A stretch of 64,000 nt of DNA from an uncultured Candidatus Saccharibacteria bacterium (GTDB taxonomy: Bacteria > Patescibacteriota > Minisyncoccia > Phycocordibacterales > UBA1550), in NCBI GenBank assembly GCA_964642305.1, contig CAZXOE010000002.1, positions 50,300-114,299 on the forward strand. Direction: 5' to 3'. A program made the translations under genes and the position numbers. Every line of letters begins with the position of its first letter. Position 1 is the stretch's first letter. A model generated the notes under the pieces. The model was not told the origin of the DNA. It made no database searches and worked only from the letters and a program-made list of their open reading frames with translations. This document shows, piece by piece, positions 2,158-41,896 of the stretch.

Positions 2158-2811
2158 CTAGTGCGCAAGCGCATATTCAATAAGTGCTTTTAGTTCTTCT
2201 TTAGAACGAGGGTTGGTAGATTTTTTGCCATTAATGAAGAATGTCGGTGTTTGATTTACTTGGGAAAGTTTGCCACTTTGCAAGTCGCGCTCTACCTTTG
2301 CTTTTACTGTGTCACTTTTTACATCAGCCTTGTATTTAGCAATATCAAGACCAAGTTTCTCCGCGTAGCCCTCGAAAATTATTTGAGCGCTCACACTTTC
2401 CGACCAATCGTTCTGGTTTTTGAAAAGCATATCTGCCATTTCCCAGAACCTACCCTGAGCGCCTGCTGCTTCAGATGCGTATGAAGCAGGAAGCGCGTTT
2501 TTGTGTTGCTGAAGAGGGAAGTGACGGTAAGTAAAAGAGATTTTGTCTTTATACTCGGCAAACATTTCCTCAAGCATTGGATAGTATGAACCACAAGCAG
2601 GACACTGAAAGTCGCTGTACTCCGTGAATGTCATTTTTGGTGCTTTTGAGCCCTTTGTCCAGTCGGTCTCGTCCAAAGGAAGGCTCATTGTGCCGTCTTT
2701 GCGAGGGAGTTCCGCTTTGGGGCCTGTGGCTACTTGATACGCGCCAATTCCTGCAATTGCGACAACTAGCGCCGCCGAAACCCAAATAATAATTCTTTTC
2801 TGTGTATCCAT
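2158..2811 (-). CDS. DsbA-like thioredoxin-fold disulfide oxidoreductase
   Basis: N-terminal TM anchor and a CPAC active-site motif (FQCPACGSY). It is paired with the VKOR homolog, as in the known VKOR-DsbA systems. Confidence 0.7.
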   Translation of the reverse strand: MDTQKRIIIWVSAALVVAIAGIGAYQVATGPKAELPRKDGTMSLPLDETDWTKGSKAPKMTFTEYSDFQCPACGSYYPMLEEMFAEYKDKISFTYRHFPLQQHKNALPASYASEAAGAQGRFWEMADMLFKNQNDWSESVSAQIIFEGYAEKLGLDIAKYKADVKSDTVKAKVERDLQSGKLSQVNQTPTFFINGKKSTNPRSKEELKALIEYALAH

Positions 2812-2839
2812 AATAGGTGTATGGTAGCAGATATTTTGA

Positions 2840-2900
2840 GCCCCGCAAAGTGTAACCTATCCGAGGTCAGGACTTCGGATAGGTTACACTTTGCGGGGCA
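2840..2900. repeat. 62-bp perfect hairpin (25-bp stem) in a divergent promoter region
   Basis: gccccgcaaagtgtaacctatccga / tcggataggttacactttgcggggc with a ~10-nt loop, about 27 bp upstream of the DsbA-like start. Confidence 0.5.
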
Positions 2901-2948: not shown

Positions 2949-3073
2949 TGAATCCCGTTAGAGGTCGCACAGTTTTTGTAGAATGGTGAGAAACGACTAT
3001 ACTGATAGGTGATACATTATTAATGAATACTAATTAACTACGGAAATTTTTAATAATTTCCTACCTCTAACGG
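2949..3073 (+). mobile_element. MITE-like mini-element copy 1 (TIR CCCGTTAGAGGT...ACCTCTAACGGG), ORF-less
   Basis: 12-bp terminal inverted repeats at 2954-2965 and 3063-3074. 9-bp direct repeats GATGAAATA at 2940-2948 and 3074-3082. The right end abuts the pgi ATG. The ends are homologous to the copies at 20241 and 40210. Confidence 0.5.
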
Positions 3074-3074
3074 G

Positions 3075-4379
3075 ATGAAATACCAGGGACACATAAAAGA
3101 AGGAGAGCATATCACTGTGGACAATGCTCGCGTGGAGGAGTATGTCGCAAAAATGCGTCTTGCAATGAGCGACAAAGCTTATTCAACCCCAGAAGCATCT
3201 CTGAGGTTGCCCTTTGACGAGGAGCTTCTAAAAAAATCAAAAAACCTCGCAAGCAAACTCGCGGGGCCAAAGCTCACGTATATTTTAGATATTGGCATCG
3301 GGGGGTCAAACCTCGGCGCAAGGGCGCTCTATGAAGCAACCGCTGGAACTATGGACGCACACACGCCATTTGCGCCAAAAATGCTTTTTGCGGACACATG
3401 CTCACCGGAGCTTCTTTCAGATATCACGGAGCTTCTCTTGAATGAAATAGGTGACAAAGAAGAAATTATAATTATTGTCGCAAGTAAGTCTGGCACAACG
3501 ACAGAAACAATCACAAATGCATCTGTGCTTGTCAGCGCGCTTGAACAAAAATTCGGATCACTCACGGATCGCATTGTGTGCATTACGGATGAGAAGTCGC
3601 CACTTTGGATTATGGCGGAAGATCAAAAATTCCATTTGCTTCCAGTTCCAAAAAATGTAGGTGGACGTTTTTCTGTTTTCTCGCCAGCCGGAGTGTTTCC
3701 GCTTCTGTGTGCTGGTATCCCTGGAGATGCGCTTATGCGTGGAGCGCAGTCCGTTATTCACGACGCTATTGAGAGAGGAGTAGAAAGTAATTCTTTTAAA
3801 TTCGCAAAAGATATTATTTCATGGCACGAACAAGGTAGAATCGTGTTTGATTTTTTTGCGTTTCACCCAGAGCTTGAGTCTCTTGGAAAATGGTATCGTC
3901 AACTTTTTGCGGAAAGTACAGGGAAAGAAAAAACAATTGACGGCGCGCCTACAACGCACCGCATGGTGCCAACTGTATCCATAGGTTCCACCGACCTCCA
4001 TTCTGTTGAACAAATGAACCTTGCGCAACAGAATATCTCAGCGCGTTTTCTTGTTCGCGCGCATGCTCCGCACTGGGAGCACCAGTTTTTGGCAGAGGAT
4101 AAAGTGTTTGCCCCACTCGTGCCAGGTGTTTCTAGGCGCGCTCCATGTGAAATTCTTGATGCCATTTATAAAGGGGTCACTGAAACATACAAGGAACGAG
4201 GAGTTTCATATGGTGAGATTTTGCTAACTGATCTTGATCCAGAGTCGCTTGGAGCGCTTATGCAGTTTATGATGTGTACCACGATGCATCTTGCAAAACT
4301 GCTTAATATCAATGCATTTGACCAGCCAAACGTAGAGGCATACAAGGAGGCTACGAGGAGGATTTTGAGCGGGAAATAA
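3075..4379 (+). CDS. pgi: glucose-6-phosphate isomerase
   Basis: DIGIGGSNLG motif (the PGI GIGGS signature). 434 aa, PGI-like throughout. Confidence 0.75.
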   Translation: MKYQGHIKEGEHITVDNARVEEYVAKMRLAMSDKAYSTPEASLRLPFDEELLKKSKNLASKLAGPKLTYILDIGIGGSNLGARALYEATAGTMDAHTPFAPKMLFADTCSPELLSDITELLLNEIGDKEEIIIIVASKSGTTTETITNASVLVSALEQKFGSLTDRIVCITDEKSPLWIMAEDQKFHLLPVPKNVGGRFSVFSPAGVFPLLCAGIPGDALMRGAQSVIHDAIERGVESNSFKFAKDIISWHEQGRIVFDFFAFHPELESLGKWYRQLFAESTGKEKTIDGAPTTHRMVPTVSIGSTDLHSVEQMNLAQQNISARFLVRAHAPHWEHQFLAEDKVFAPLVPGVSRRAPCEILDAIYKGVTETYKERGVSYGEILLTDLDPESLGALMQFMMCTTMHLAKLLNINAFDQPNVEAYKEATRRILSGK

Positions 4380-7125: not shown

Positions 7126-10113
7126 ATGACCAAAAAAGTAATATTATTACTCACGCTTTTACTAGCAACATCTGCATCTGCCTCAGCTTTCTCTTTCCCC
7201 ACCAACCTCAAACTAGGTAGCAGAGGAGAAGAAGTAAAGAACCTCCAAATACTACTAAACCAAGATCCAGATACTCAGATAGCAGTAAGTGGAGCAGGTT
7301 CCCCAAACAATGAAACAACATACTTCGGCCCAGCTACAAAAAGAGCTGTAATCAATTTCCAAAACAAATACAAACAGGAAACACTAACACCGATAGGACT
7401 CACAAAGGGTACAGGATTTGTAGGAGCGCTCACAAGAAAGAAGCTCTCTACAATGGGAACATCAGGAACAACAGTAACTACAACAACACCTACAACATCC
7501 TGCCTAACCAAATACGACCCCAAGACAGGCAAACTCTGTGTCACAACAACCTCCACAGCTGTACAAACCTGCCTAACCAAATATGACCCCAAGACAGGCA
7601 AGCTCTGCTCTCAAATTACAGGAACATCATCTAGCTCAGTAACACCATCATCTATTACTTCAAATATCATCTCCCCAACACCAGCATACTCATTCTCTGG
7701 AGGAGGTGGTGGGGGAGGATACACAACACCATCAACATCTCAGACACAAACTCCCACTCCCACAAACGGAGGATGGAGCGCGTATGGAACCTGCTCAGCA
7801 ACAGCTTGTGGAACAACAGGTAACAGAGTACGCACCTGCAACAACCCCACTCCTCTAAATGGTGGAGCATACTGCTCTGGAACATCATCAGAAACCTGCT
7901 CTGCTCCAGCATGTGGAGTAAACACCTACACACTCACAGCAACAGCTGGAGCAAATGGAGTCATCTCTCCTCTAGGTGGCACCACTGTATCTCAAGGTGG
8001 AAGCCAGACATATACAATTACACCCAATGCAGGATACCAACTCGCAACATTAACAATCGGTGGTGGCCCAGTAAGCCCTGTTAGTTCATACACATTCACA
8101 AATGTTCAGGGGGATAATACGATTAATGCGACGTTCAGCGCGATACCAGAAGGAGCAAACCCCATCACACTCTCTCTCATACCTGCTAGAACATCTGGAG
8201 TAGCTCCACTCTCCGTATTCTTTGATGCCACAGGAACTACAGATCCCACTATGACCTCTAGACCATTCCATGATCTAGAATACACATGGGACTTCGGAGA
8301 TCCATCATCAGGCACTTGGGCAAATGGAGCACAACCAAATGTAAGTAGCAAGAACACAGCCACTGGCCCAGTCTCAGCTCATGTGTTTGAAACCCCTGGT
8401 ACTTACACAGTTACTCTCACTGCTTTTGATGGAGTGAATACTAATACAACTAATACTACGATTACAGTAGATGATCCAGATGTTGTCTTTGCGGGGACAA
8501 ATACTATCTGTGTTAGTTCAAACACTACACCTACAGCAGGAGCAAATGGATGTCCAACAGGAGCTCAGACAGTGATGCAACCAAACTTCGCAACTGCAAT
8601 CAATACTTATGCACTTACTAATAGAAGAGTGCTGTTTAAGAGGGGGGATGTGTTTACTGGAACAACATACGGATGGTTAAAAGTTGATGGACCTGGGATT
8701 ATTGGAGCGTTTGGAATTGATCAGACTATTAAACCAATTGTGCGTATAACTATTTCTTCAACATATAATACTCCTTATCTAGCTTTATCAAATAATAATA
8801 CTGCAGGTATAAATGACTGGAGAATAATGGATTTAGAATTTGACGGTCTTGGTAATATAAAATCGCAAGGCATCAGTGCATTTGGAAGTATTGACCAAGT
8901 TACTATTTTACGTATGAATATGCATGATATAGGTGTTGGAATCCTTTTTGATCCACAAGTTTTAGATTATCAAAATAGTTCTAGTCAAGATATTTATGGC
9001 AATATAACTGTAACTAATTTTCCTCTTCCTCGACATATCTACGATGAAATTGCAATTGTAGATTCTACTTTGACACCAGTCAGACCCAGTGCTTACGGGT
9101 GGAGAATTTACGCAAGCGCTAAACATTTTTCTATTATGGGTAATACTCTTGGTAATGTGTTTGACGATACGTCAATGGGTTACCATACTATACGTAATAA
9201 CTATGCACATAAGTATGTGTTGTCGAATAATACTTTTTCCAAATCTAAAGGGCTTGCGCTTAAGTTGCATGCGCCGGCATGGTGTGACGCCACAAGTCTT
9301 ACAAATCAATGTCTATTTAATGCAGTGGCGAGTACAATGCCAACCCCAACTTATAGTTACCTCACTAACACTCAACCAGTTGTATCAGTAATGGGTCAGA
9401 CTGGTGGTTACTCCGAACAGATTATTATTTCCGATAATAAAATTATTGGTAATAGTATTGCTGGCGATCCACCAGTATATTTATTTAATGTTGGGCCACA
9501 AAATGATGCAAAAGATGAACGATTGAAGGATATAATTTTGGAACGCAATTTTTTCAAAGCTGGATTAAATACACAAGCAGCTCTAATCATAACAGGTAGG
9601 GAAATAACTGCGCGAAATAATATTTGCGATCTAACAGGTGGAACAAACGGAAGAACATGTATCGAAGTAAAGCCGTATAGCCCTATCAGTCCCGCTCCTT
9701 TCCCAAAGGACATTTGGGTATATAATAATACAGCCTATAATGGAGATGTTACGGCTATAAGTCAGCCATCATTTTCTGCTGTAAAGGTTGACTTAGGTGC
9801 TGTTGATGTTGCTGTGAAAAATAATTTGGGTTATTCTCCGCTTTCTTTTGCTAGTCTTACAAGATTGCTTTACAACCTTAGTGCTTGCACGCCTTCTTGT
9901 GTTGTTGAATCAAATAATTCCACTGATTCTCAAATAAAAAACACATCCCCAGCTTGGGCCTCCTCAACCCCATCAACCCCCGCCGACTTCCGCCTCACCT
10001 CAGATAGCTACGGTCTAAACACAGGAACAGCAGTAAAAGTCTTCTCCGACTTCTTCCGTAACCTAAGACCACAAGGTAGTGCATATGACATGGGAGCAAT
10101 AGAAGGACTCTAG
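7126..10113 (+). CDS. secreted multidomain protein: peptidoglycan-binding domain, thrombospondin type-1 repeat, PKD domain, right-handed beta-helix
   Basis: Signal peptide. PG_binding_1-like LKLGSRGEEVKNLQ...YFGPATKRAVINFQ. Two Cys-pair repeats (CLTKYDPKTGKLC). TSP1-like GGWSAYGTCSATACG..RVRTCNNP..GGAYCSG. PKD-like WDFGDPSSG...GTYTVTLTAFDG. Confidence 0.65.
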   Translation: MTKKVILLLTLLLATSASASAFSFPTNLKLGSRGEEVKNLQILLNQDPDTQIAVSGAGSPNNETTYFGPATKRAVINFQNKYKQETLTPIGLTKGTGFVGALTRKKLSTMGTSGTTVTTTTPTTSCLTKYDPKTGKLCVTTTSTAVQTCLTKYDPKTGKLCSQITGTSSSSVTPSSITSNIISPTPAYSFSGGGGGGGYTTPSTSQTQTPTPTNGGWSAYGTCSATACGTTGNRVRTCNNPTPLNGGAYCSGTSSETCSAPACGVNTYTLTATAGANGVISPLGGTTVSQGGSQTYTITPNAGYQLATLTIGGGPVSPVSSYTFTNVQGDNTINATFSAIPEGANPITLSLIPARTSGVAPLSVFFDATGTTDPTMTSRPFHDLEYTWDFGDPSSGTWANGAQPNVSSKNTATGPVSAHVFETPGTYTVTLTAFDGVNTNTTNTTITVDDPDVVFAGTNTICVSSNTTPTAGANGCPTGAQTVMQPNFATAINTYALTNRRVLFKRGDVFTGTTYGWLKVDGPGIIGAFGIDQTIKPIVRITISSTYNTPYLALSNNNTAGINDWRIMDLEFDGLGNIKSQGISAFGSIDQVTILRMNMHDIGVGILFDPQVLDYQNSSSQDIYGNITVTNFPLPRHIYDEIAIVDSTLTPVRPSAYGWRIYASAKHFSIMGNTLGNVFDDTSMGYHTIRNNYAHKYVLSNNTFSKSKGLALKLHAPAWCDATSLTNQCLFNAVASTMPTPTYSYLTNTQPVVSVMGQTGGYSEQIIISDNKIIGNSIAGDPPVYLFNVGPQNDAKDERLKDIILERNFFKAGLNTQAALIITGREITARNNICDLTGGTNGRTCIEVKPYSPISPAPFPKDIWVYNNTAYNGDVTAISQPSFSAVKVDLGAVDVAVKNNLGYSPLSFASLTRLLYNLSACTPSCVVESNNSTDSQIKNTSPAWASSTPSTPADFRLTSDSYGLNTGTAVKVFSDFFRNLRPQGSAYDMGAIEGL

Positions 10114-10206
10114 TCTGAAAGAATACAGATCAGAAAAGGGGTAATTTTGCATTGTAAAATTACCCCTTTTCATAATTTACCAATGGGGGTATAATACAAA
10201 TTACAT

Positions 10207-10584
10207 ATGACAAAGAAAATATTAATTATTGATGACGATAAGATTTTTTCAAAAATCCTTCGTGATGGACTTATTGCTGGTGGAGAAGGGAGATACGAGG
10301 TGCTTTCTGCTTTTGATGGTGAAGAAGGTTTTGAAGTGGCCTCAAAGGAAAGACCAGACCTCATTATGCTAGATATGATGATGCCAAAAGTTACAGGCAT
10401 TGAGTTTCTGCGAAAGTATCGCAAGGAGGAGTTTGGAAAGAACACTCCAGTCATCGTGGAAACACAGCTCTCTGATCTTGAAAAAATGAGCGAAGGGGTT
10501 GAGCTCGGGGTACGAGGTTATATTATTAAATCGGATTATTCTCTTGATACGATTTTGCGACAAGTGGATGATATTTTGAAATAA
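10207..10584 (+). CDS. single-domain response regulator (CheY-like receiver)
   Basis: ILIIDDD at the N-terminus and a DLIMLDMMMP phospho-acceptor region. 125 aa. Confidence 0.75.
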   Translation: MTKKILIIDDDKIFSKILRDGLIAGGEGRYEVLSAFDGEEGFEVASKERPDLIMLDMMMPKVTGIEFLRKYRKEEFGKNTPVIVETQLSDLEKMSEGVELGVRGYIIKSDYSLDTILRQVDDILK

Positions 10585-20211: not shown

Positions 20212-20240
20212 TTTTACGCAGTCGTGGTATGCTCATTTTT

Positions 20241-20522
20241 ATGAATCCCGTTAGAGACCCCTCAGTTATGTATTACACCTATGTTATCGAGAACGATAAA
20301 GGTACATGGTATACTGGAAGTACGGGAGACCTACGGAAACGCTTTAGAGAGCACAACGAAGGGCAGGCCAACATGGACAAAAGGTAAAGGTTTGTGGAAG
20401 GTTATTTATTACGAAGCATGTCTTAATGAGCAAGATGCTCGGTCGAGAGGGATGTATTTAAAATCAAGAATGGGTAAGCGCTATCTAAAAAGTAGACTAA
20501 AGCGTTTCCTGTCTCTAATGGG
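20241..20522 (+). mobile_element. TIR mini-element copy 2 carrying a GIY-YIG nuclease ORF (TIR CCCGTTAGAGAC...GTCTCTAATGGG)
   Basis: Left end ATGAATCCCGTTAGAG is identical to the first 16 nt of copy 1. Right TIR at 20511-20522 abuts the argS ATG at 20523. Confidence 0.55.
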
Positions 20523-20526
20523 ATGA
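20268..20526 (+). pseudogene. GIY-YIG nuclease (YhbQ/UPF0213-like), interrupted by a +1 frameshift
   Basis: Frame 0 gives MYYTYVIENDKGTWYTGSTGDLRKRFREHNEGQ, the GIY-YIG core. Frame +1 continues TKGKGLWKVIYYEA...YLKSR. A 1-nt shift lies near 20370. The ORF track splits it into 20199..20387 and 20281..20526. Confidence 0.55.
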
Positions 20527-22241
20527 AAGAGAAACTAGAATCAATAGTTGCAGAGGCGCTCAAAGCGCTTGGAATTGAAACTGCGACTGTTACAATAGAA
20601 CGCCCCGCCGACATGGCGCACGGCGACTATTCCACCAACGCGGCTCTGGTTTACGGAAAGAAAGCAGGCATTCCACCGCGCGAGTTTGCGGAGAAACTAT
20701 TAGAAAAAATACGAGATGCATCACCATATGACATAGCAAAAATTGAAATCGCCGGCGCTGGGTTCGTCAATTTTTTCATGACCGCTGACGCGATAAGGGA
20801 AGAAAATAAAAAAGAAAAATGCTCTCTCGTCACTAGGTATTCAAAAAAGAATATTCTTGTGGAGCATTCTTCCCCAAATATCTTTAAACCGTTTCATATC
20901 GGGCATTTAATGAACAACATTGTTGGTGAGTTTGTCACAAGGGCAACAATAATAGGTGGCGGAAATGTCACGACTATATCTTTTCCATCAGATGTTTCCC
21001 TCGGGATTGCAAAAGCGGTGTTTGTCCTTCTTGAGGACAAAAAAGAAGGCAGAGATGTATTTGCGCTTTCAGATGAAGAAAAAATAACCGCATTTGGCGA
21101 AGCATACCGAAGGGGTGTGGAGTATTTTGACACGCGCCCCGATGAGAATGAAAAGGCAAAAGAGATAGCGCGCATCATTTATGACAAAGACCATTCATCA
21201 GAAACTCGCGCGTTTTTTGAACGCGCAAAAGAAATCAACACCGCATATCTTATAAAAATAATAAAGGAGCTTGGTTCTGTTATAGACGAGATAATTTATG
21301 AATCTGAGGCAGGTGAAATAGGGCAAGAGATTGTAGAGAAAAACACGGGCGAGGGAAAAGTGTTTGCAAAAAGTGAAGGCGCAGTGGTGTATGTCCCTGA
21401 TCCCGCGCGCAAGGATTTGCACACGCAGGTCTTTATCAACAGCGAGGGGCATCCGACATATGAAGCAAAAGATCTCGGCCTCATTGATTTGAAGTTCTCA
21501 AAATTTGCGCCCGATATTTCGTATTTTGTCACCGACACGGAGCAGGCATCGCATTTTAGGGTTGTGCTCGATGCCGCAGGGAAGCTTGGTGGTGTGTGGC
21601 CGTCGCGCGTAGAAAAAAGCATTCACATCCCGCATGGAAGAATGCTTTTCAAGGGGCAAAAAATGTCGAGCCGTCTTGGGGGTGTGCCGATCGCTCTTGA
21701 TGTTGTTGCAGTGGTGGAGGAAGAAGTAAGAGAGAGAGCAGGGGAGAAAATTGCGCACCTCGGTGCTCTAGAGAAAATGAAGCTGGAGCGTGAGATTGCG
21801 CTTTCTTCCCTCCGTGTGGCGGTCCTTCGTTCAAAGCCAGGTATTAATATTAATTTTGACCCCGAAACATCACTCTCGTTTGAAGGGGACTCAGGTCCGT
21901 ATCTTTTGTATACACACGCACGAACCGCGTCGCTTCTTGAAAAAGGGAAAGAAAAAGGATATGAGCCAACGTTTGCATCTGTGCCAGTAACACTTTTAGA
22001 AAGAGAGCTAGCGCAGTATGAGTTTGTTTTAGGGCAGGCGGTCACCGATCTTCATCCACAAAAATTAGTGACGTATCTTTTTGAAGTAGCGCAACTATTT
22101 AATGGTTTTTATGGAAGTACGCAAATCATCACAGAAGATAAAGAAACATCCGAGCATTACCTCGCCATAGTAAAGCGGCTCAAAGCAGTCCTCAAGGAAG
22201 GCCTCTGGGTGCTCGGCATTTCCGCACCGGAGAAGATGTAG
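20523..22241 (+). CDS. argS: arginyl-tRNA synthetase
   Basis: HIGH motif FHIGHLMN. Class-I ArgRS-like over 572 aa. Confidence 0.9.
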   Translation: MKEKLESIVAEALKALGIETATVTIERPADMAHGDYSTNAALVYGKKAGIPPREFAEKLLEKIRDASPYDIAKIEIAGAGFVNFFMTADAIREENKKEKCSLVTRYSKKNILVEHSSPNIFKPFHIGHLMNNIVGEFVTRATIIGGGNVTTISFPSDVSLGIAKAVFVLLEDKKEGRDVFALSDEEKITAFGEAYRRGVEYFDTRPDENEKAKEIARIIYDKDHSSETRAFFERAKEINTAYLIKIIKELGSVIDEIIYESEAGEIGQEIVEKNTGEGKVFAKSEGAVVYVPDPARKDLHTQVFINSEGHPTYEAKDLGLIDLKFSKFAPDISYFVTDTEQASHFRVVLDAAGKLGGVWPSRVEKSIHIPHGRMLFKGQKMSSRLGGVPIALDVVAVVEEEVRERAGEKIAHLGALEKMKLEREIALSSLRVAVLRSKPGININFDPETSLSFEGDSGPYLLYTHARTASLLEKGKEKGYEPTFASVPVTLLERELAQYEFVLGQAVTDLHPQKLVTYLFEVAQLFNGFYGSTQIITEDKETSEHYLAIVKRLKAVLKEGLWVLGISAPEKM

Positions 22242-22269: not shown

Positions 22270-23005
22270 AAAGGGGTCAGGTACCTTTGATTTGTGATAT
22301 AGTCTTAGTATATAATACAAACATGCCACGACTACCACGCGTTGATGTTGGAGGAGAAATTTATCACGTCATTAATCGTGCAAATGCACGGTTGCCAATT
22401 TTTTTTAAAGAAGACGACTATAAACTTTTTGAGACAATTATTGAGGAAGCGCAGATTAAATTTGGTATGAGGATTCTCGCGTATTGTTTTATGCCAAATC
22501 ATTTTCATCTTGTATTACATCCAAACAGTGACGGTGATTTGCAGAAGTTTATGCAATGGCTCACGCTTACTCATACTCAACGCTGGCACACAAAAAATGG
22601 AACGACAGGAACTGGACATCTATATCAAGGACGATACAAGTCTTTTCTTGTCCAAGGCGACAGGCACTTACTTACTATTATTCGCTATGTAGAGAGAAAT
22701 CCACTGCGGGCAAAATTGGTCAAGAAAATTGAAAACTGGAATTTCTCAAGCCTCGCTAGGCGACTTTCTGGCAATCCTAAAAAGAATAAATTACTTGAAA
22801 AGTGGCCGATTGAAATGCCAAAGAATTATCTAGCCTTTGTGAACGAACCTATGAATAAAAATGAAGAAGATGTAATCAGGTACTCTGTTAATAGAAGCAA
22901 GCCTTTTGGATCGGACACATGGAGCAGTAGAATGATCGATAAGCACGGGCTAGAGGCGACGATGCGCAACAGGGGAAGACAAATCAAAGGTACCTGACCC
23001 CTTTG
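22270..23005 (+). mobile_element. IS200-like/RAYT unit bounded by 20-bp inverted repeats (AAAGGGGTCAGGTACCTTTG / CAAAGGTACCTGACCCCTTTG)
   Basis: The IRs at 22270-22289 and 22985-23005 are perfect reverse complements. The right IR overlaps the stop codon. Confidence 0.55.
22323..22997 (+). CDS. IS200/IS605-family Y1 (HUH) transposase, REP-associated tyrosine transposase-like
   Basis: HUH motif MPNHFHLVL and a catalytic Tyr region RYVERNPLRA. The TATATAATACAAAC promoter is fused to the ATG. Confidence 0.7.
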   Translation: MPRLPRVDVGGEIYHVINRANARLPIFFKEDDYKLFETIIEEAQIKFGMRILAYCFMPNHFHLVLHPNSDGDLQKFMQWLTLTHTQRWHTKNGTTGTGHLYQGRYKSFLVQGDRHLLTIIRYVERNPLRAKLVKKIENWNFSSLARRLSGNPKKNKLLEKWPIEMPKNYLAFVNEPMNKNEEDVIRYSVNRSKPFGSDTWSSRMIDKHGLEATMRNRGRQIKGT

Positions 23006-40188: not shown

Positions 40189-40209
40189 ATTGCAGTCGTG
40201 GTTACTTGT

Positions 40210-40327
40210 CCCGTTAGAGATAACTCAGTTATGTTTTCGGCGATAATGGGATATACTGAGATTACTATTATTAGAAGTTAAATATAATTAAGATAAGGAA
40301 ATTTAATAATTTCCTATCGCTAACGGG
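40210..40327 (+). mobile_element. TIR mini-element copy 3 (CCCGTTAGAGATA...TATCGCTAACGGG), ORF-less deletion derivative
   Basis: Left end shares cccgttagaga..ctcagttatg with copy 2. Right end shares ggaaatttaataatttcctaNNNctaacggg with copy 1. It abuts the metG ATG. Confidence 0.5.
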
Positions 40328-41896
40328 ATGACAGAAAAAAAATTCTACATCACTACGCCTATTTTTTACGCGAATGCGGAGCTCCATTTAGGGCACACAT
40401 ATACGCTTGTTTTGTCAGACGTTTTAGCGCGATATCATCGCTTTGTAGGAGACAATACTTTTTTCCTAACAGGCTCCGATGAGCATGGCGACAAAATTGT
40501 GCGTTCTGCGCAAAAGGAAGGCATGGGGCCTCAGGCGTTTGTAAATATAAATGTCGCAAAAATGGAGGTGCTTATTCAGGAGCTTGGTATATCAAATGAT
40601 CTATTTATTCGCACCTCCGATCAAGAGCATCATTGGTCAGGAGCAAAGAAGCTGTGGCACGCGCTTGAGGAAGCTGGTGATATTTACAGGGGCACATACA
40701 AAGGGCTTTACTGTGTTGGGTGCGAGGCATTCATTACCGAAAAAGAATTAGTGAGTGGCAAATGTCCTTTGCATGACGCTCCACCAGAGCATATTGAAGA
40801 AGAAAATTATTTTTTCAAACTTTCAAAATATGGCCCTGAAATAAAACGATTACTTGAAAGTGGAGAATTAAAAATTACTCCCCATTCACGAGTAAATGAA
40901 ATAGTTTCACTCATCTCTGGTGCGAACGGAGAGAGTGCTTTGGTAGATGTGAGTATCTCTCGCCCAGAGCGCGCGATACCGTGGGGGATACCTGCGCCAA
41001 GTGACCCAACACAGCTAATGTATGTGTGGTGCGACGCGCTTTCAAACTACATTTCTGCTCTTGGCTACGGTACAGACAATGATGAAAATTTCAAAACTTT
41101 TTGGCCAGCGGATATTCAGGTGTTGGGCAAAGACATACTTCGTTTCCACGCGCTCCTTTGGCCAGCATTTTTATTGTCAGCGAAGATTCCGCTACCACGC
41201 GAGCTTTTGGTCCATGGGTTTGTCAATTCAGGAGGGAAGAAGATGTCTAAGTCCTTGGGTAACGTGTTGAGTCCGGGTGAATTTATTTCAGAGTATGGCA
41301 GGGACGCGCTTCGGTATTACCTTACGAGAGAGGTAACTCCCGTGGATGATTGGGATTTAACCCGAGAAAAATTTAAAGAAGTTTACAATGCAAACCTGGC
41401 AAATGGCTTGGGGAACCTTGTATCACGCACTTTAAAAATGGCTGAATCGTATTTTGGAGGAGTGGTAAAAGGTGACGCGACACGTGTACCTCCTATTAAA
41501 ACAAAAATGTCCGATGTGGAAACGTTTGATGAAATTGCAGGTATTAATATTCCATATATTATTACAAATGACATTTTGCCACGTTACCATAAACATATGA
41601 GCGCGAATGAGATAAATAGAGCAGCGGACGTAATTTGGGAGCTCATTGGGCATCTAGATCAATTTGTTACAGATTATGAGCCATTTAAGCTTGTGAAGAC
41701 AGACAAGGAGTCTGCGGAGGCTGTAATTTGGTGTCTTTTGTACGGACTTCGCGAGGTTGGCCAAATGCTTACGCCAATGATGCCAGATACAGCGCAAAGG
41801 ATTATAACGCTTGTTGGCGCATCCGATGTCAAGGCTGATGAAATGGTCTTTAATGCAAAAGCACTCACCGAACCGCTTTTTATGCGCAAAGAGTAG
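40328..41896 (+). CDS. metG: methionyl-tRNA synthetase
   Basis: HIGH motif (ELHLGHTY) and KMSKS. Confidence 0.9.
   Translation: MTEKKFYITTPIFYANAELHLGHTYTLVLSDVLARYHRFVGDNTFFLTGSDEHGDKIVRSAQKEGMGPQAFVNINVAKMEVLIQELGISNDLFIRTSDQEHHWSGAKKLWHALEEAGDIYRGTYKGLYCVGCEAFITEKELVSGKCPLHDAPPEHIEEENYFFKLSKYGPEIKRLLESGELKITPHSRVNEIVSLISGANGESALVDVSISRPERAIPWGIPAPSDPTQLMYVWCDALSNYISALGYGTDNDENFKTFWPADIQVLGKDILRFHALLWPAFLLSAKIPLPRELLVHGFVNSGGKKMSKSLGNVLSPGEFISEYGRDALRYYLTREVTPVDDWDLTREKFKEVYNANLANGLGNLVSRTLKMAESYFGGVVKGDATRVPPIKTKMSDVETFDEIAGINIPYIITNDILPRYHKHMSANEINRAADVIWELIGHLDQFVTDYEPFKLVKTDKESAEAVIWCLLYGLREVGQMLTPMMPDTAQRIITLVGASDVKADEMVFNAKALTEPLFMRKE

What the first reader, a model, noticed from the sequence alone, without database searches (positions are those of the whole stretch)
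40210..40327. Third copy, a deletion derivative, flush with the metG start codon
The left end cccgttagagataactcagttatgttttcgg matches copy 2 (cccgttagagacccctcagttatgtattac), including the ATG that starts the GIY-YIG ORF. Here the ORF is reduced to MFSAIMGYTEITIIRS*. The right end ggaaatttaataatttcctatcgctaacggg|ATG matches copy 1 (ggaaatttttaataatttcctacctctaacggg|ATG). So this copy is chimeric between the 'with-ORF' and 'ORF-less' forms, which is expected if the ORF-less forms arise by internal deletion. Three of the three aaRS and glycolysis genes examined have the element at position -1 of the ATG.
Basis: seen in the sequence. Interest (0 to 1): 0.65.

Follow-up and report, generated by a model that had tools for sequence, protein, structure and literature searches.

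The report
Tiny GIY-YIG transposon relic before metG
The 118 bases in front of metG are a gutted copy of an apparently undescribed, very small (about 277 bp) mobile element of CPR/Patescibacteria that encodes only a small GIY-YIG nuclease, folds back on itself, and inserts exactly at gene start codons.

Summary
Window 40210-40327 is the third copy of a repeat bounded by CCCGTTAGAG...CTCTAACGGG, next to the metG ATG. Four syntenic metG orthologs lack it, so it is an insertion. It belongs to a large CPR family. The long form (~275-278 bp) is one GIY-YIG ORF of the UPF0213/Slx1 type whose coding ends are the inverted repeats. True termini are Y...R (11-bp TIR), so the A of the host ATG is the element's last base. 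A 4-bp target duplication flanks them (TNNA, mostly TGAA of A|TGAA starts), regenerating the host start codon and supplying the nuclease's TGA stop. Two long-range helices, P1 (termini) and P2, covary strongly inside coding sequence. Short forms such as copies 1 and 3 keep P1 and P2 and match the long form minus the P2-enclosed segment. That supports "deletion derivative" but not "chimeric". Near-identical copies at different genes show recent mobility. A sister subfamily (C...G termini) sits on -35 promoter boxes. Copy 3 is atypical: it has no duplication, and its left flank ACTTGT pairs with AUGA, burying the metG start codon. The transposition chemistry, and whether the helices act as DNA or RNA, remain inferred. 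No description was found in the papers searched, Rfam or NCBIfam.

The parts
40209..40328 (+). Copy 3: complete short (non-autonomous) element including the terminal T...A pair (core 40210-40327, 118 bp)
   Evidence: It is absent from four syntenic metG orthologs. Terminal-pair rule.
40206..40222 (+). P1 5' strand of copy 3: flank TTGT + CCCGTTAGAGATA
   Evidence: The fold (-36.3 kcal/mol, z -4.3) pairs it with 40315-40331. P1 covaries in the family.
40315..40331 (+). P1 3' strand of copy 3: TATCGCTAACGGG + ATGA, which contains the metG start codon
   Evidence: One A.G mismatch (A 40218 opposite G 40319).
40297..40314 (+). P2 hairpin GGAAATT-TAAT-AATTTCC, directly 5' of the P1 3' strand
   Evidence: The stem shows compensatory changes in relatives (GGAAATC/GATTTCC, GGAAACG/CGTTTCC, GGACACC/GGTGTCC). 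It corresponds to long-range helix P2 of the long form.
40231..40281 (+). Remnant reading frame MFSAIMGYTEITIIRS*, starting at the position of the nuclease's conserved internal ATG
   Evidence: The left 30 nt match c2 at 24 of 30. Probably not functional.
40192..40209 (+). Left flank GCAGTCGTGGTTACTTGT: extended -10-like TGgTTACTT (40199-40207), the atypical hexamer ACTTGT (40204-40209) in place of a duplicated start, and no 4-bp duplication (CTTG against TGAC)
   Evidence: GCAGTCGTGGT is shared with the c2 flank. The origin of ACTTGT is unexplained.
40328..41896 (+). metG (methionyl-tRNA synthetase), the host gene
   Evidence: Pfam tRNA-synt_1g E = 2.7e-98. Orthologs.
2953..3075 (+). Copy 1: short element before pgi. 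TGAA duplication at 2949-2952 and 3076-3079, retained upstream ATG at 2948-2950, -10-like TAGAAT at 2934-2939, P2 hairpin at 3042-3061
20246..20523 (+). Copy 2: long element before argS. TGAA duplication at 20242-20245 and 20524-20527, captured in-frame ATG at 20241, internal ATG at 20268, frameshift near 20361-20372, stop TGA at 20524-20526 overlapping the argS ATG, -10-like TGGTATGCT at 20225-20233
20335..20347 (+). Copy 2, P2 5' strand GGAAACGCTTTAG (codons of LRKRF)
20497..20509 (+). Copy 2, P2 3' strand CTAAAGCGTTTCC (codons of LKRFL), exact reverse complement of 20335-20347

Best explanation
Copy 3 is a non-autonomous, internally deleted (MITE-like) member of a family of very small DNA mobile elements of CPR bacteria. 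SHOWN: (1) It is an insertion, because syntenic orthologs lack it. (2) The autonomous-looking form is about 277 bp and is a single ORF for a 85-95 aa GIY-YIG nuclease of the UPF0213/Slx1 clade. Its first and last codons (NPVRD / SLTG) are the two arms of an 11-bp terminal inverted repeat, Y-CCCGTTAGAG...CTCTAACGGG-R. (3) Elements are flanked by a 4-bp direct repeat of target DNA (TNNA, mostly TGAA). When the target is the TGAA of an A|TGAA start, the host start codon is rebuilt next to the element (its first base is the element's last base). The second TGAA copy gives the nuclease its TGA stop, overlapping the host ATG. The first copy leaves an ATG behind the host's -10 box, often in frame with the nuclease. 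(4) Two long-range helices are maintained by compensatory changes at synonymous sites: P1 (termini plus two flanking bases) and P2 (LRKRF codons pairing with LKRFL codons). Short forms keep exactly P1 and P2. (5) Near-identical long and short copies sit at different genes in one genome. INFERRED: the nuclease is the mobilising enzyme. Like its structure-specific relatives, it recognises the branched P1/P2 fold (extruded cruciform or single strand), not a long sequence, and makes cuts staggered by 4 nt at TNNA. Short forms are moved in trans. Host genes, many of them essential, stay expressed because the start codon is regenerated and, in long forms, translation is coupled through the ATGA overlap. 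For copy 3, metG is probably expressed from transcripts that start inside the element or are processed at P1. In a full-length transcript, P1 would bury the AUG.
For: Insertion: four metG orthologs (77-88% identical, same M16 peptidase-AI2E-metG-TatD synteny) have 12-22 nt between the upstream stop and the ATG. The empty argS site in L090 reads GTGGTATGCTcaatttaatt|ATGAAAGAG, against the filled sites GTGGTATGCT...ATGAA-T[element]ATGAAAGAG in the window and L003. Family: more than 2700 homologs, mostly 94-95 aa, with MNPVRD and RLKRFLSLTG nearly invariant, and 3006 clusters at 50% identity with E <= 1e-10. TIR and TSD: the outer pair is complementary in 112 of 113 and 122 of 128 elements. The 4-bp repeat is perfect in 69 of 113 (26% for shuffled partners) and in 71 of 128. 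It is diverse (TCAA, TGGA, TCTG, TTTA, TATG, TGAG...), so it is not element-borne. The mixed cases ATGAAC[..]GTGAAG fit only a 4-bp duplication plus Y...R termini. Helices: 96.9% of cells are paired, and 125 cells have changes on both sides against 31.6 +/- 4.3 in shuffles (0 of 500) and 6-20 when the partner is slid. All three window copies fold this way with z from -3.6 to -5.0. Short form = long form minus the P2 loop. Protein: Pfam GIY-YIG. The nearest solved relatives are UPF0213 BH0048 (1.6e-9) and Slx1 by sequence and by fold. The N-terminal MNPVRD is disordered in the model. 66 of 70 long forms keep an intact ORF, and 61 of those 66 end at the junction TGA. Mobility: L012, L014 and L017 are 99.6-100% identical at three different genes, and short pairs are 95-99% identical with unrelated flanks. 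Tandem arrays occur at one start codon. Targeting: 61 of 128 termini-selected elements abut a start codon, and 46 of 52 T...A-type ones do. A -10-like box lies 5-11 nt before the retained upstream ATG in 27 of 55 against an 11.5% background. Genes in the window are largely SD-less, and 29% have such a box. Hosts include ArgS, IleS, PheT, SecA, TopA, LigA and PyrG.
Against: No biochemical or in vivo evidence exists. GIY-YIG enzymes hydrolyse DNA and are not known to do strand transfer, so insertion needs further, unidentified steps (ligation, fill-in). The nuclease could be a passenger if an unseen transposase exists elsewhere in these incomplete genomes. Copy 3 itself lacks the duplication and has ACTTGT on its left, like 7 of 138 start-adjacent elements, which the model does not explain. 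Interior similarity between short and long forms is weak. The DNA-versus-RNA test is equivocal: G.U to A.C mismatches are 21:16 in P2 and 6:3 in P1. The enrichment at start codons could partly reflect survival of harmless insertions in compact genomes rather than targeting. Copy 2, the only long copy in the window, is a pseudogene, so no active nuclease is shown in this genome. 37 of 66 intact ORFs begin at their own internal Met, so start-codon capture is optional. No conserved internal promoter exists in the subfamily of c1 and c3, so how metG is expressed is unproven.
Confidence: 0.72

Rival explanations
1. The helices act mainly in RNA. The element is tolerated, or even useful, because P1/P2 in the transcript is cut by a double-strand-specific RNase (RNase III type, as for rRNA intervening sequences and Neisseria Correia elements) or is melted by ribosomes. 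This regenerates a near-leaderless mRNA or couples host translation to translation of the element. It can be true alongside DNA mobility.
For: P1 includes the A and U of the host AUG. Seven elements, including copy 3, carry AYTYGY, whose TYGY pairs with RUGA always through a G.U opposite the U of AUG, and G.U pairs are stable in RNA but poor in DNA. Short forms are co-oriented with the host gene in 28 of 29 and 9 of 9, although they are non-coding. GIY-YIG-bearing non-intron insertions are reported in CPR rRNA genes (PMC11270868), and RNase III is retained in CPR (PMC12641178). The ATGA stop/start overlap is present in 61 of 66.
Against: There is no G.U excess over A.C in P2 (21:16) and only 6:3 in P1. 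The same P1 architecture occurs in the C...G subfamily, which sits upstream of -35 boxes and so outside the downstream gene's transcript. No transcript data are available. In copy 3 the best -10-like box (40199-40207) would start transcription inside the 5' arm.
Confidence: 0.4
2. It is a free-standing homing endonuclease gene that spreads only by cleavage of an empty allele and recombinational repair (like T4 seg/mob genes). The short copies are decayed relics left in place.
For: GIY-YIG is a classic homing endonuclease fold. There is a weak hit to the group I intron endonuclease family TIGR01453. The element lies between genes and is co-oriented with the downstream gene. The ORF decays in some copies.
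Against: The protein is the catalytic domain only (85-95 aa), with no DNA-binding domain for a long target. TIGR01453 scores 21 bits against a cut-off of 56. Dozens of unrelated insertion sites occur within single genomes, with no flank homology and with 4-bp duplications. Short forms have multiplied as short forms.
Confidence: 0.08
3. The palindromic elements are REP/BIME-like or IS200-like sequences moved by a Y1 (HUH) tyrosine transposase such as the one encoded at window 22324-22997. The GIY-YIG ORF would be cargo.
For: A Y1_Tnp gene lies 1.8 kb downstream of copy 2. The elements have subterminal hairpins and orientation bias, as IS200/IS605 derivatives do.
Against: The Y1 gene has its own unrelated 19-bp inverted repeats, found nowhere else in the window. 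There is no Y1 homolog in about 2 Mb of element-bearing loci. Y1 transposition makes no target duplication and uses no terminal inverted repeats, and both are present here. The TIRs are the coding ends of the nuclease ORF.
Confidence: 0.04
4. It is a conserved cis-regulatory leader (riboswitch- or attenuator-like) of aminoacyl-tRNA synthetase and glycolysis genes, with a nuclease gene inserted in one copy.
For: Position immediately 5' of aaRS genes, a stable conserved fold, and covariation.
Against: Orthologous metG and argS genes lack it. Host genes are functionally unrelated (pili, SecA, topoisomerase, ligase, glycosyltransferases). Target duplications and near-identical copies are present. 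There is no Rfam match.
Confidence: 0.02
5. Chance resemblance of AT-rich promoter regions.
For: The interiors are AT-rich, and interior-only similarity is weak.
Against: Terminal motif: 0 of 100 shuffles. Whole-length alignment z = 12.4. Hundreds of homologous elements have the same ends.
Confidence: 0.01

Closest known systems
Bacterial insertion sequences and their MITE derivatives (e.g. IS630/Tc1-type elements with TA duplication; Neisseria Correia elements)
   Same: Terminal inverted repeats, a short fixed-length target duplication, many copies per genome, ORF-less short derivatives that keep only the ends, and empty sites in relatives. Like Correia elements, they sit next to genes and form long hairpins in transcripts.
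   Different: The only ORF is a GIY-YIG nuclease, not a DDE, HUH, serine or tyrosine transposase. The whole autonomous unit is about 277 bp, less than half the size of IS200 (my own knowledge: about 700 bp). The TIRs are coding. A second internal helix (P2) is conserved. The target duplication supplies the ORF's stop codon and rebuilds the host start codon. TIR sequences are unrelated to any I know.
UPF0213 (YhbQ/BH0048-type) proteins and Slx1 structure-specific endonucleases
   Same: Best sequence and fold matches (1zg2 E = 1.6e-9; Slx1 6seh, 4xm5, 7cq2). Single GIY-YIG domain with the catalytic Tyr, Tyr-Gly, Arg, His and Glu positions invariant.
   Different: Slx1 works with Slx4 and carries a RING domain. 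UPF0213 proteins are single-copy housekeeping-type genes with no reported repeats. Here the gene is multi-copy, bounded by inverted repeats, and has extra conserved termini (NPVRD, RLKRFLSLTG) that reflect DNA/RNA pairing.
Free-standing and intron-encoded GIY-YIG homing endonucleases (I-TevI; T4 SegA-G, MobE)
   Same: A selfish GIY-YIG gene wedged between host genes, co-transcribed with them, and prone to decay.
   Different: There is no DNA-binding domain, many unrelated sites per genome, target duplications, inverted repeats and non-autonomous derivatives. None of these is a feature of homing.
IS200/IS605 and REP/RAYT systems
   Same: Mobility apparently depends on folded (hairpin) ends rather than on long sequence recognition. 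Short targets, orientation bias and abundant small palindromic derivatives are shared.
   Different: Those elements use a Y1 HUH transposase, have no terminal inverted repeats and make no duplication. No Y1 gene is associated here.
GIY-YIG-encoding, non-intron insertions in CPR rRNA genes (Tsurumaki et al. 2024, PMC11270868)
   Same: Same host clade. [quoted passage not shown] These may be the same element family.
   Different: That survey did not describe inverted repeats, duplications, short derivatives or start-codon insertion. I found no copy inside an rRNA gene. One copy lies on the promoter upstream of a 16S gene (L015).
Long-range RNA pairing that couples translation of adjacent cistrons (MS2 coat/replicase) and ATGA stop/start overlaps
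   Same: The ORF's 5' and 3' regions pair over a long distance, and the stop codon overlaps the next start. Translation of the element would open the helix that holds the host AUG.
   Different: Here this is only a resemblance. No expression data exist, and the same helices occur in copies outside host transcripts.

Membership tests
GIY-YIG nuclease superfamily (Pfam PF01541) | Profile match above the curated cut-off | tested here: met
   Repaired c2 ORF: E = 1.8e-12, 47.8 bits against a cut-off of 22.6. All homologs carry PF01541.
GIY-YIG nuclease superfamily (Pfam PF01541) | Conserved catalytic positions (Tyr of GIY, Tyr-x-Gly of YIG, Arg, His/Asn, Glu) and the alpha/beta fold | tested here: met
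   Y14, Y24, G26, R32/R34, H38 and E58 are invariant in 32 sequences. AlphaFold model pLDDT 88 with a three-stranded sheet plus helices. Fold hits to UPF0213, Slx1 and UvrC-N. The window's own copy is frameshifted.
UPF0213 / Slx1 clade (structure-specific GIY-YIG) | Closest relatives by sequence and fold are UPF0213 and Slx1 rather than UvrC, I-TevI or restriction enzymes | tested here: met
   1zg2 1.6e-9, 1ywl 2e-4, SLX1 1e-3. The top 7 Foldseek hits are UPF0213 or Slx1.
UPF0213 / Slx1 clade (structure-specific GIY-YIG) | Cleavage of branched or stem-loop DNA | not testable with these tools
   Needs enzyme assays on P1/P2 junction substrates.
Homing endonuclease gene (I-TevI / Seg type) | Nuclease joined to a DNA-binding domain that reads a long (14-40 bp) target | tested here: not met
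   85-95 aa, catalytic domain only. TIGR01453 scores 21 bits against a cut-off of 56.
Homing endonuclease gene (I-TevI / Seg type) | One cognate site, copied by homologous repair, no duplication | tested here: not met
   Many unrelated host genes, a 4-bp duplication, and identical copies with unrelated flanks.
Insertion sequence / MITE (TIR transposon) | Terminal inverted repeats | tested here: met
   11-bp Y-CCCGTTAGAG / CTCTAACGGG-R, with the outer pair complementary in 112 of 113 and 122 of 128.
Insertion sequence / MITE (TIR transposon) | Target-site duplication of fixed length | tested here: met
   4 bp, perfect in 69 of 113 and 71 of 128 against 26% in the control, with diverse sequences. 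Not met by copy 3 itself (CTTG against TGAC).
Insertion sequence / MITE (TIR transposon) | Empty sites in relatives and multiple near-identical copies at different loci | tested here: met
   empty metG and argS sites; 99.6-100% identical long copies; 95-99% identical short pairs.
Insertion sequence / MITE (TIR transposon) | Encodes a transposase of a recognised class (DDE, HUH, Ser, Tyr) | tested here: not met
   The only ORF is GIY-YIG. There is no room for another gene in 277 bp.
Insertion sequence / MITE (TIR transposon) | Demonstrated transposition | not testable with these tools
   Needs a mating-out or trap assay, or read-level insertion polymorphism.
IS200/IS605 - REP/RAYT | Y1 HUH transposase; no TIR; no duplication | tested here: not met
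   TIR and duplication are present. No Y1 homolog in about 2 Mb of loci. The window's Y1 gene has separate repeats.
Known structured RNA family (Rfam 15), including T-box and other aaRS leaders and group I/II introns | Covariance-model match | tested here: not met
   No hit at gathering score in the window. Only chance-level hits at E up to 10 around copy 3.
Cis-regulatory leader of the host gene | Presence at the orthologous position in relatives | tested here: not met
   Four metG and three argS orthologous sites are empty.

The most novel reading that the evidence does not exclude
This would be a new class of prokaryotic DNA transposon, and the smallest autonomous one known (about 277 bp). 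Its sole protein is a structure-specific GIY-YIG nuclease whose gene is the element. Mobility would depend on a folded P1/P2 DNA junction written into the coding sequence. Insertion would be directed to promoter landmarks: the +1/ATG of leaderless genes for the T...A subfamily and the -35 hexamer for the C...G subfamily. The 4-bp duplication would rebuild the host signal, supply the nuclease's stop codon and couple the two genes.
Probability: 0.45. Interest if true: 0.92.

Novelty: new variant of a known kind. Interest (0 to 1): 0.8.

Why it matters
If the nuclease is the mobilising enzyme, this adds a new enzyme class to prokaryotic transposition. It would also set a new lower size limit for an autonomous mobile element, with a gene whose coding ends double as its recombination sites.

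It shows how a parasite can sit in front of essential genes in tiny, tightly packed CPR genomes without killing them, by rebuilding the start codon or the -35 box through the target duplication. That makes it a natural probe of how these uncultured bacteria start transcription and translation (largely SD-less, leaderless-type starts).

There are practical consequences too. Thousands of 'GIY-YIG nuclease family protein' annotations, N-terminally extended or fused host proteins, and mis-called start codons in CPR genomes come from this element. The 45-135-bp derivatives are an unannotated repeat class that will affect assembly and binning. A small nuclease that recognises a programmable-looking DNA fold is also of biotechnological interest.

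Tried and rejected
- **Rfam:** gathering-score search of the whole window and an E-value search around copy 3 found nothing.
- **Sigma-70 two-hexamer promoter scan:** uninformative, because these genomes use extended -10 boxes without clear -35 boxes at these genes.
- **Y1 transposase at 22.3 kb as mobiliser:** rejected.
- **Phage carriage:** no relative in IMG/VR.
- **rRNA-gene insertion for the GTCAAC-flanked copies:** not supported. Only L015 lies near a 16S gene, and it sits on that gene's promoter.
- **Defining short-form orientation by minimum-free-energy folding:** unreliable and abandoned in favour of sequence motifs and subfamily alignment.
- **Conserved internal promoter in the c1/c3 subfamily:** none found. 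The interior is unconserved. TAnnnT boxes 12-60 nt before the host ATG are common but expected in AT-rich sequence.
- **Element-borne ATGAAT instead of a duplication:** rejected because of diverse matching flanks and the mixed ATG/GTG cases.
- **5- or 6-bp duplication models:** rejected for the same reason.
- **My early idea that the ORF has no start codon of its own:** wrong. A conserved internal Met exists and is the only possible start in 37 of 66 intact copies.
- **G.U versus A.C strand test for RNA versus DNA:** inconclusive.
- **Literature:** eight searches (GIY-YIG with Patescibacteria, Parcubacteria, transposon/TSD, MITE, leaderless/start codon, UPF0213/YhbQ; leaderless with candidate phyla radiation; the TIR string itself) found no description.
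Full report
**Observation.** The sequence at 40210-40327 is exactly as quoted, and the mini-ORF MFSAIMGYTEITIIRS* lies at 40231-40281. The window holds three copies of an element bounded by CCCGTTAGAG...CTCTAACGGG:
- c1, 2954-3074, before pgi;
- c2, 20247-20522, before argS;
- c3, 40210-40327, before metG.

The terminal decamer (up to 1 mismatch) occurs 7 times against 1.8 expected, and 0 of 100 shuffles reach that. c1 and c3 align over their whole length (90 of 107 columns identical, z = 12.4). c2 encodes a GIY-YIG domain once a 1-nt frameshift is repaired. The frameshift is identical in three independent assemblies, so c2 is a real pseudogene.

The 'chimeric' reading fails. c3's left 30 nt match c2 at 24 of 30 and c1 at 22 of 30.

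**It is an insertion.** The window is a metagenome contig from a relative of Candidatus Yonathbacteria. Four MetG orthologs (77-88% identity) in the same gene order (M16 peptidase, AI-2E transporter, metG, TatD) have only 12-22 nt between the transporter stop and the ATG.

For argS:
- the empty site in L090 reads GTGGTATGCTcaatttaatt|ATGAAAGAG;
- the filled sites (window and L003) read GTGGTATGCT...ATGAA-T[CCCG...CGGG]ATGAAAGAG;
- L088 and L089 are also empty;
- L087 carries a long element before tmk instead.

**The family.**
- The repaired ORF, read from the ATG just left of the element, has more than 2700 homologs. Nearly all are from Patescibacteria and 94-95 aa long. The termini MNPVRD and RLKRFLSLTG are almost invariant.
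- In DNA these termini are ATG AAT CCC GTT AGA GA and TCT CTA ACG GGA TGA. The inverted repeats are therefore the coding ends of the gene.
- A profile search finds 3006 clusters at 50% identity with E <= 1e-10, including long fusions with host proteins.
- Eighty loci from named genomes yielded 115 elements in two size classes: 45-135 bp, and 271-282 bp plus three longer ones.
- A second sample, collected from metagenomes by the termini alone, yielded 128 distinct short elements.

**Ends and duplication.**
- The base outside the left end and the base outside the right end are complementary in 112 of 113 and 122 of 128 elements (T...A or C...G).
- Just outside these lies a 4-nt direct repeat. 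It is perfect in 69 of 113 (26% for shuffled partners) and in 71 of 128.
- TGAA dominates, but TCAA, TGGA, TCTG, TTTA, TATG, TGAG, TCCA, TTAA, TAAA and TAGA also occur as matching pairs. The repeat is therefore duplicated target, not part of the element.
- Mixed cases such as ATGAAC[..]GTGAAG and GTGAAT[..]ATGAAT fit only a 4-bp duplication plus element termini Y...R. The first base of the downstream start codon belongs to the element.
- For the window, the elements are therefore 2953-3075, 20246-20523 and 40209-40328.

**Two conserved helices.**
- In 66 long forms the consensus fold has P1 (14 bp) and P2 (14 bp). P1 comprises the termini plus the two flanking bases, so it includes the A and U of the host AUG.
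- P2 pairs GGAAACGCTTTAAT, in the DLRKRFN codons, with ATTAAAGCGTTTCC, in the RLKRFL codons. One nucleotide separates P2 from P1 on the 3' strand.
- 96.9% of cells are paired. 125 cells have changes on both sides, against 31.6 +/- 4.3 in shuffles (0 of 500) and 6-20 with slid partners.
- Many of these are covarying synonymous third positions (CGC/AAG changing to CGT/AAA), which protein selection cannot produce.
- The N-terminal MNPVRD is disordered in the structure model. It is conserved even where translation can only start at the internal Met.

**Short forms.**
- They keep P1 and a local hairpin that is P2 with its loop removed: GGAAAyN..NrTTTCC + TRT + CTCTAACGGG. Compensatory stem changes occur between genomes.
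- c2 minus its P2-enclosed segment is 115 nt, against 118 (c3) and 121 (c1).
- The subfamily of c1 and c3 has 9 members of 117-121 bp. Only P1 and P2 are conserved; the interior has drifted.
- All three window copies fold this way (z = -4.3, -5.0 and -3.6).

**The protein.**
- It is a bare GIY-YIG domain with invariant catalytic positions.
- Its nearest solved relatives, by sequence and by predicted fold, are UPF0213 proteins and the branched-DNA nuclease Slx1. They are not I-TevI-type homing enzymes.
- 66 of 70 long forms keep an intact ORF. 29 of them start at the retained upstream ATG, and 37 at a conserved internal Met.
- In 61 of the 66, the stop is the TGA of the second duplication copy, overlapping the host ATG (ATGA). 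Where the duplication lacks TGA, the ORF reads into the host gene. L065 is an example, with a 297-aa fusion.

**Where it lands.**
- 138 elements abut a start codon. In the unbiased sample this is 61 of 128, against about 0.2% expected by chance.
- T...A-type elements do so in 46 of 52 cases.
- Genes in the window rarely have Shine-Dalgarno motifs (13% against a 7.9% background). 29% have a -10-like box 5-11 nt before the start (background 11.5%, p = 6e-4). This indicates leaderless or near-leaderless mRNAs.
- The same box precedes the retained upstream ATG in 27 of 55 elements.
- Hosts are diverse and often essential: ArgS, IleS, PheT, SecA, TopA, LigA, PyrG, ATP synthase and pilus genes.
- C...G-type elements are mostly elsewhere (54 of 69). 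Their flanks are GTT[TG]AC, and 11 of 29 of these are followed by a -10 box at 16-19 nt (background 9.2%). Examples include TTGACA-17-TAATAT and the promoter facing a 16S gene in L015. This subfamily therefore sits on -35 hexamers, which the duplication rebuilds.
- Orientation is fixed relative to the host gene or target: 28 of 29, 9 of 9, and 6 of 6 in each of two C...G subfamilies.

**Mobility.**
- Three long copies in one assembly are 99.6-100% identical at three different genes.
- Short pairs are 95-99% identical with unrelated flanks.
- Tandem arrays at one start codon show that the rebuilt target is reused.
- No Y1 transposase accompanies the element, and no copy was found in viral contigs.

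**Copy 3 in particular.**
- It is an ordinary member of the short class, except on its left side. There, ACTTGT replaces the expected A-TGAC-T, and there is no duplication.
- Seven of the 138 start-adjacent elements, from several lineages and of both sizes, have AYTYGY at this position. In each, TYGY can pair with the host RUGA through a G.U opposite the U of AUG.
- In copy 3 this extends P1 to about 17 bp and buries the metG start codon. I cannot explain the origin of this flank.
- I also cannot explain why c2 and c3 share GCAGTCGTGGT upstream.

**Mechanism: what is shown and what is inferred.**
- Shown: insertion, terminal inverted repeats, a 4-bp duplication, coding ends, the P1/P2 constraint, purifying selection on the nuclease, recent spread of long and short forms, and target and orientation preferences.
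- Inferred: the nuclease is the mobilising enzyme. It recognises the folded P1/P2 junction and cuts with a 4-nt stagger at TNNA. Short forms move in trans. Host expression survives through the rebuilt start codon and ATGA coupling.
- Open: whether the helices act in DNA, RNA or both.
  - The mismatch test is equivocal.
  - Copies upstream of promoters argue for DNA.
  - The G.U class and strict co-orientation with host genes argue for RNA.

**Known systems.**
- The element works like an insertion sequence with MITE derivatives, but it lacks any recognised transposase class.
- It fails the tests for a homing endonuclease gene, for IS200/REP systems, for any Rfam family and for a host leader RNA.
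- Eight literature searches found no description.
- The nearest mention is of GIY-YIG ORFs in non-intron insertions of CPR rRNA genes (PMC11270868).

**Verdict.** The finding is one copy of what looks like an undescribed and widespread family of mobile elements. I rate it a new variant of a known kind (a TIR/TSD element with MITE derivatives). It would become a new class if the GIY-YIG nuclease is shown to be the transposase.

Noticed in passing
window 22271-23003: IS200/RAYT-like Y1 transposase gene (ORF 22324-22997, Pfam Y1_Tnp 5e-18). It is bracketed by its own perfect 19-bp inverted repeats, AAGGGGTCAGGTACCTTTG and CAAAGGTACCTGACCCCTT, found nowhere else in the window. TATAAT lies 6 nt before its ATG (a leaderless-type start).
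   Followed up: partly
window 2836-2900: Long, near-perfect hairpin (gccccgcaaagtgtaacctatccgaggtcaggacttcggataggttacactttgcggggc) between the DsbA-like gene (2158-2811, minus strand) and copy 1. It looks like a bidirectional terminator or another palindromic element.
   Followed up: no
whole window: Most genes lack a Shine-Dalgarno motif, and 29% have a TGnTAnnnT-type -10 box 5-11 nt before the start codon. This suggests widespread leaderless or near-leaderless mRNAs in this Yonathbacteria-like genome.
   Followed up: partly
L092-L210 and L015:526, L046:9308, L065:6904, L116:7080 and 9137, L153:160, L183:663: A sister subfamily with C...G termini is inserted on -35 promoter hexamers (flanks ...TTGAC|el|GTTGACA-16/17-TAnnnT). 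One sits on the promoter facing a 16S rRNA gene. The TTGA/TTTA duplication rebuilds the -35 box.
   Followed up: partly
L065:6896-7789: In-frame fusion of the nuclease to the host protein (297 aa). The duplication is TCAA just after the host ATG, so no TGA stop is supplied. Long fusion proteins (e.g. 600 aa with the nuclease at residues 9-101) also appear among family representatives.
   Followed up: partly
L037:2136-2534, L039:1001-1396, L013:~9980-10284: Tandem arrays: a long element followed directly by a short one (or preceded by another element's end) at the same start codon. The rebuilt ATGAA target is hit again.
   Followed up: partly
L012:2173, L014:2678, L017:7057 (one assembly, CAZATK01): Three long elements that are 99.6-100% identical in front of three different genes, indicating very recent transposition. 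This assembly would be a good source of an active nuclease.
   Followed up: yes
L087:474-758: In an argS-orthologous locus the long element sits before tmk (stop overlapping the tmk ATG) rather than before argS, which shows independent insertions at neighbouring genes in related genomes.
   Followed up: partly
L056:10292, L039:1281, L016:6631, L038:1550, L067:1276, L011:11723, L046:9308: A short-form subfamily with arms CCCGTTAGAAGCCGCGATCGC...GATCGCGATCTGCTTCTAACGGG carries the palindrome GCGATCGC (the same octamer as cyanobacterial HIP1). The 45-bp L046 copy is almost a bare hairpin.
   Followed up: no
L021, L068, L070, L076, L077, L081 (bins labelled Omnitrophota, TA06, Planctomycetes, Scalinduaceae, Syntrophales): Long elements also occur in contigs binned outside the CPR. 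L076 and L081 have identical flanks in two different bins, which suggests either horizontal transfer or mis-binning.
   Followed up: no
window 40192-40202 and 20218-20228: The 11-mer GCAGTCGTGGT occurs exactly twice in 64 kb, both times just upstream of an element (c3 and c2). It is only partly explained by the local extended -10 consensus.
   Followed up: partly
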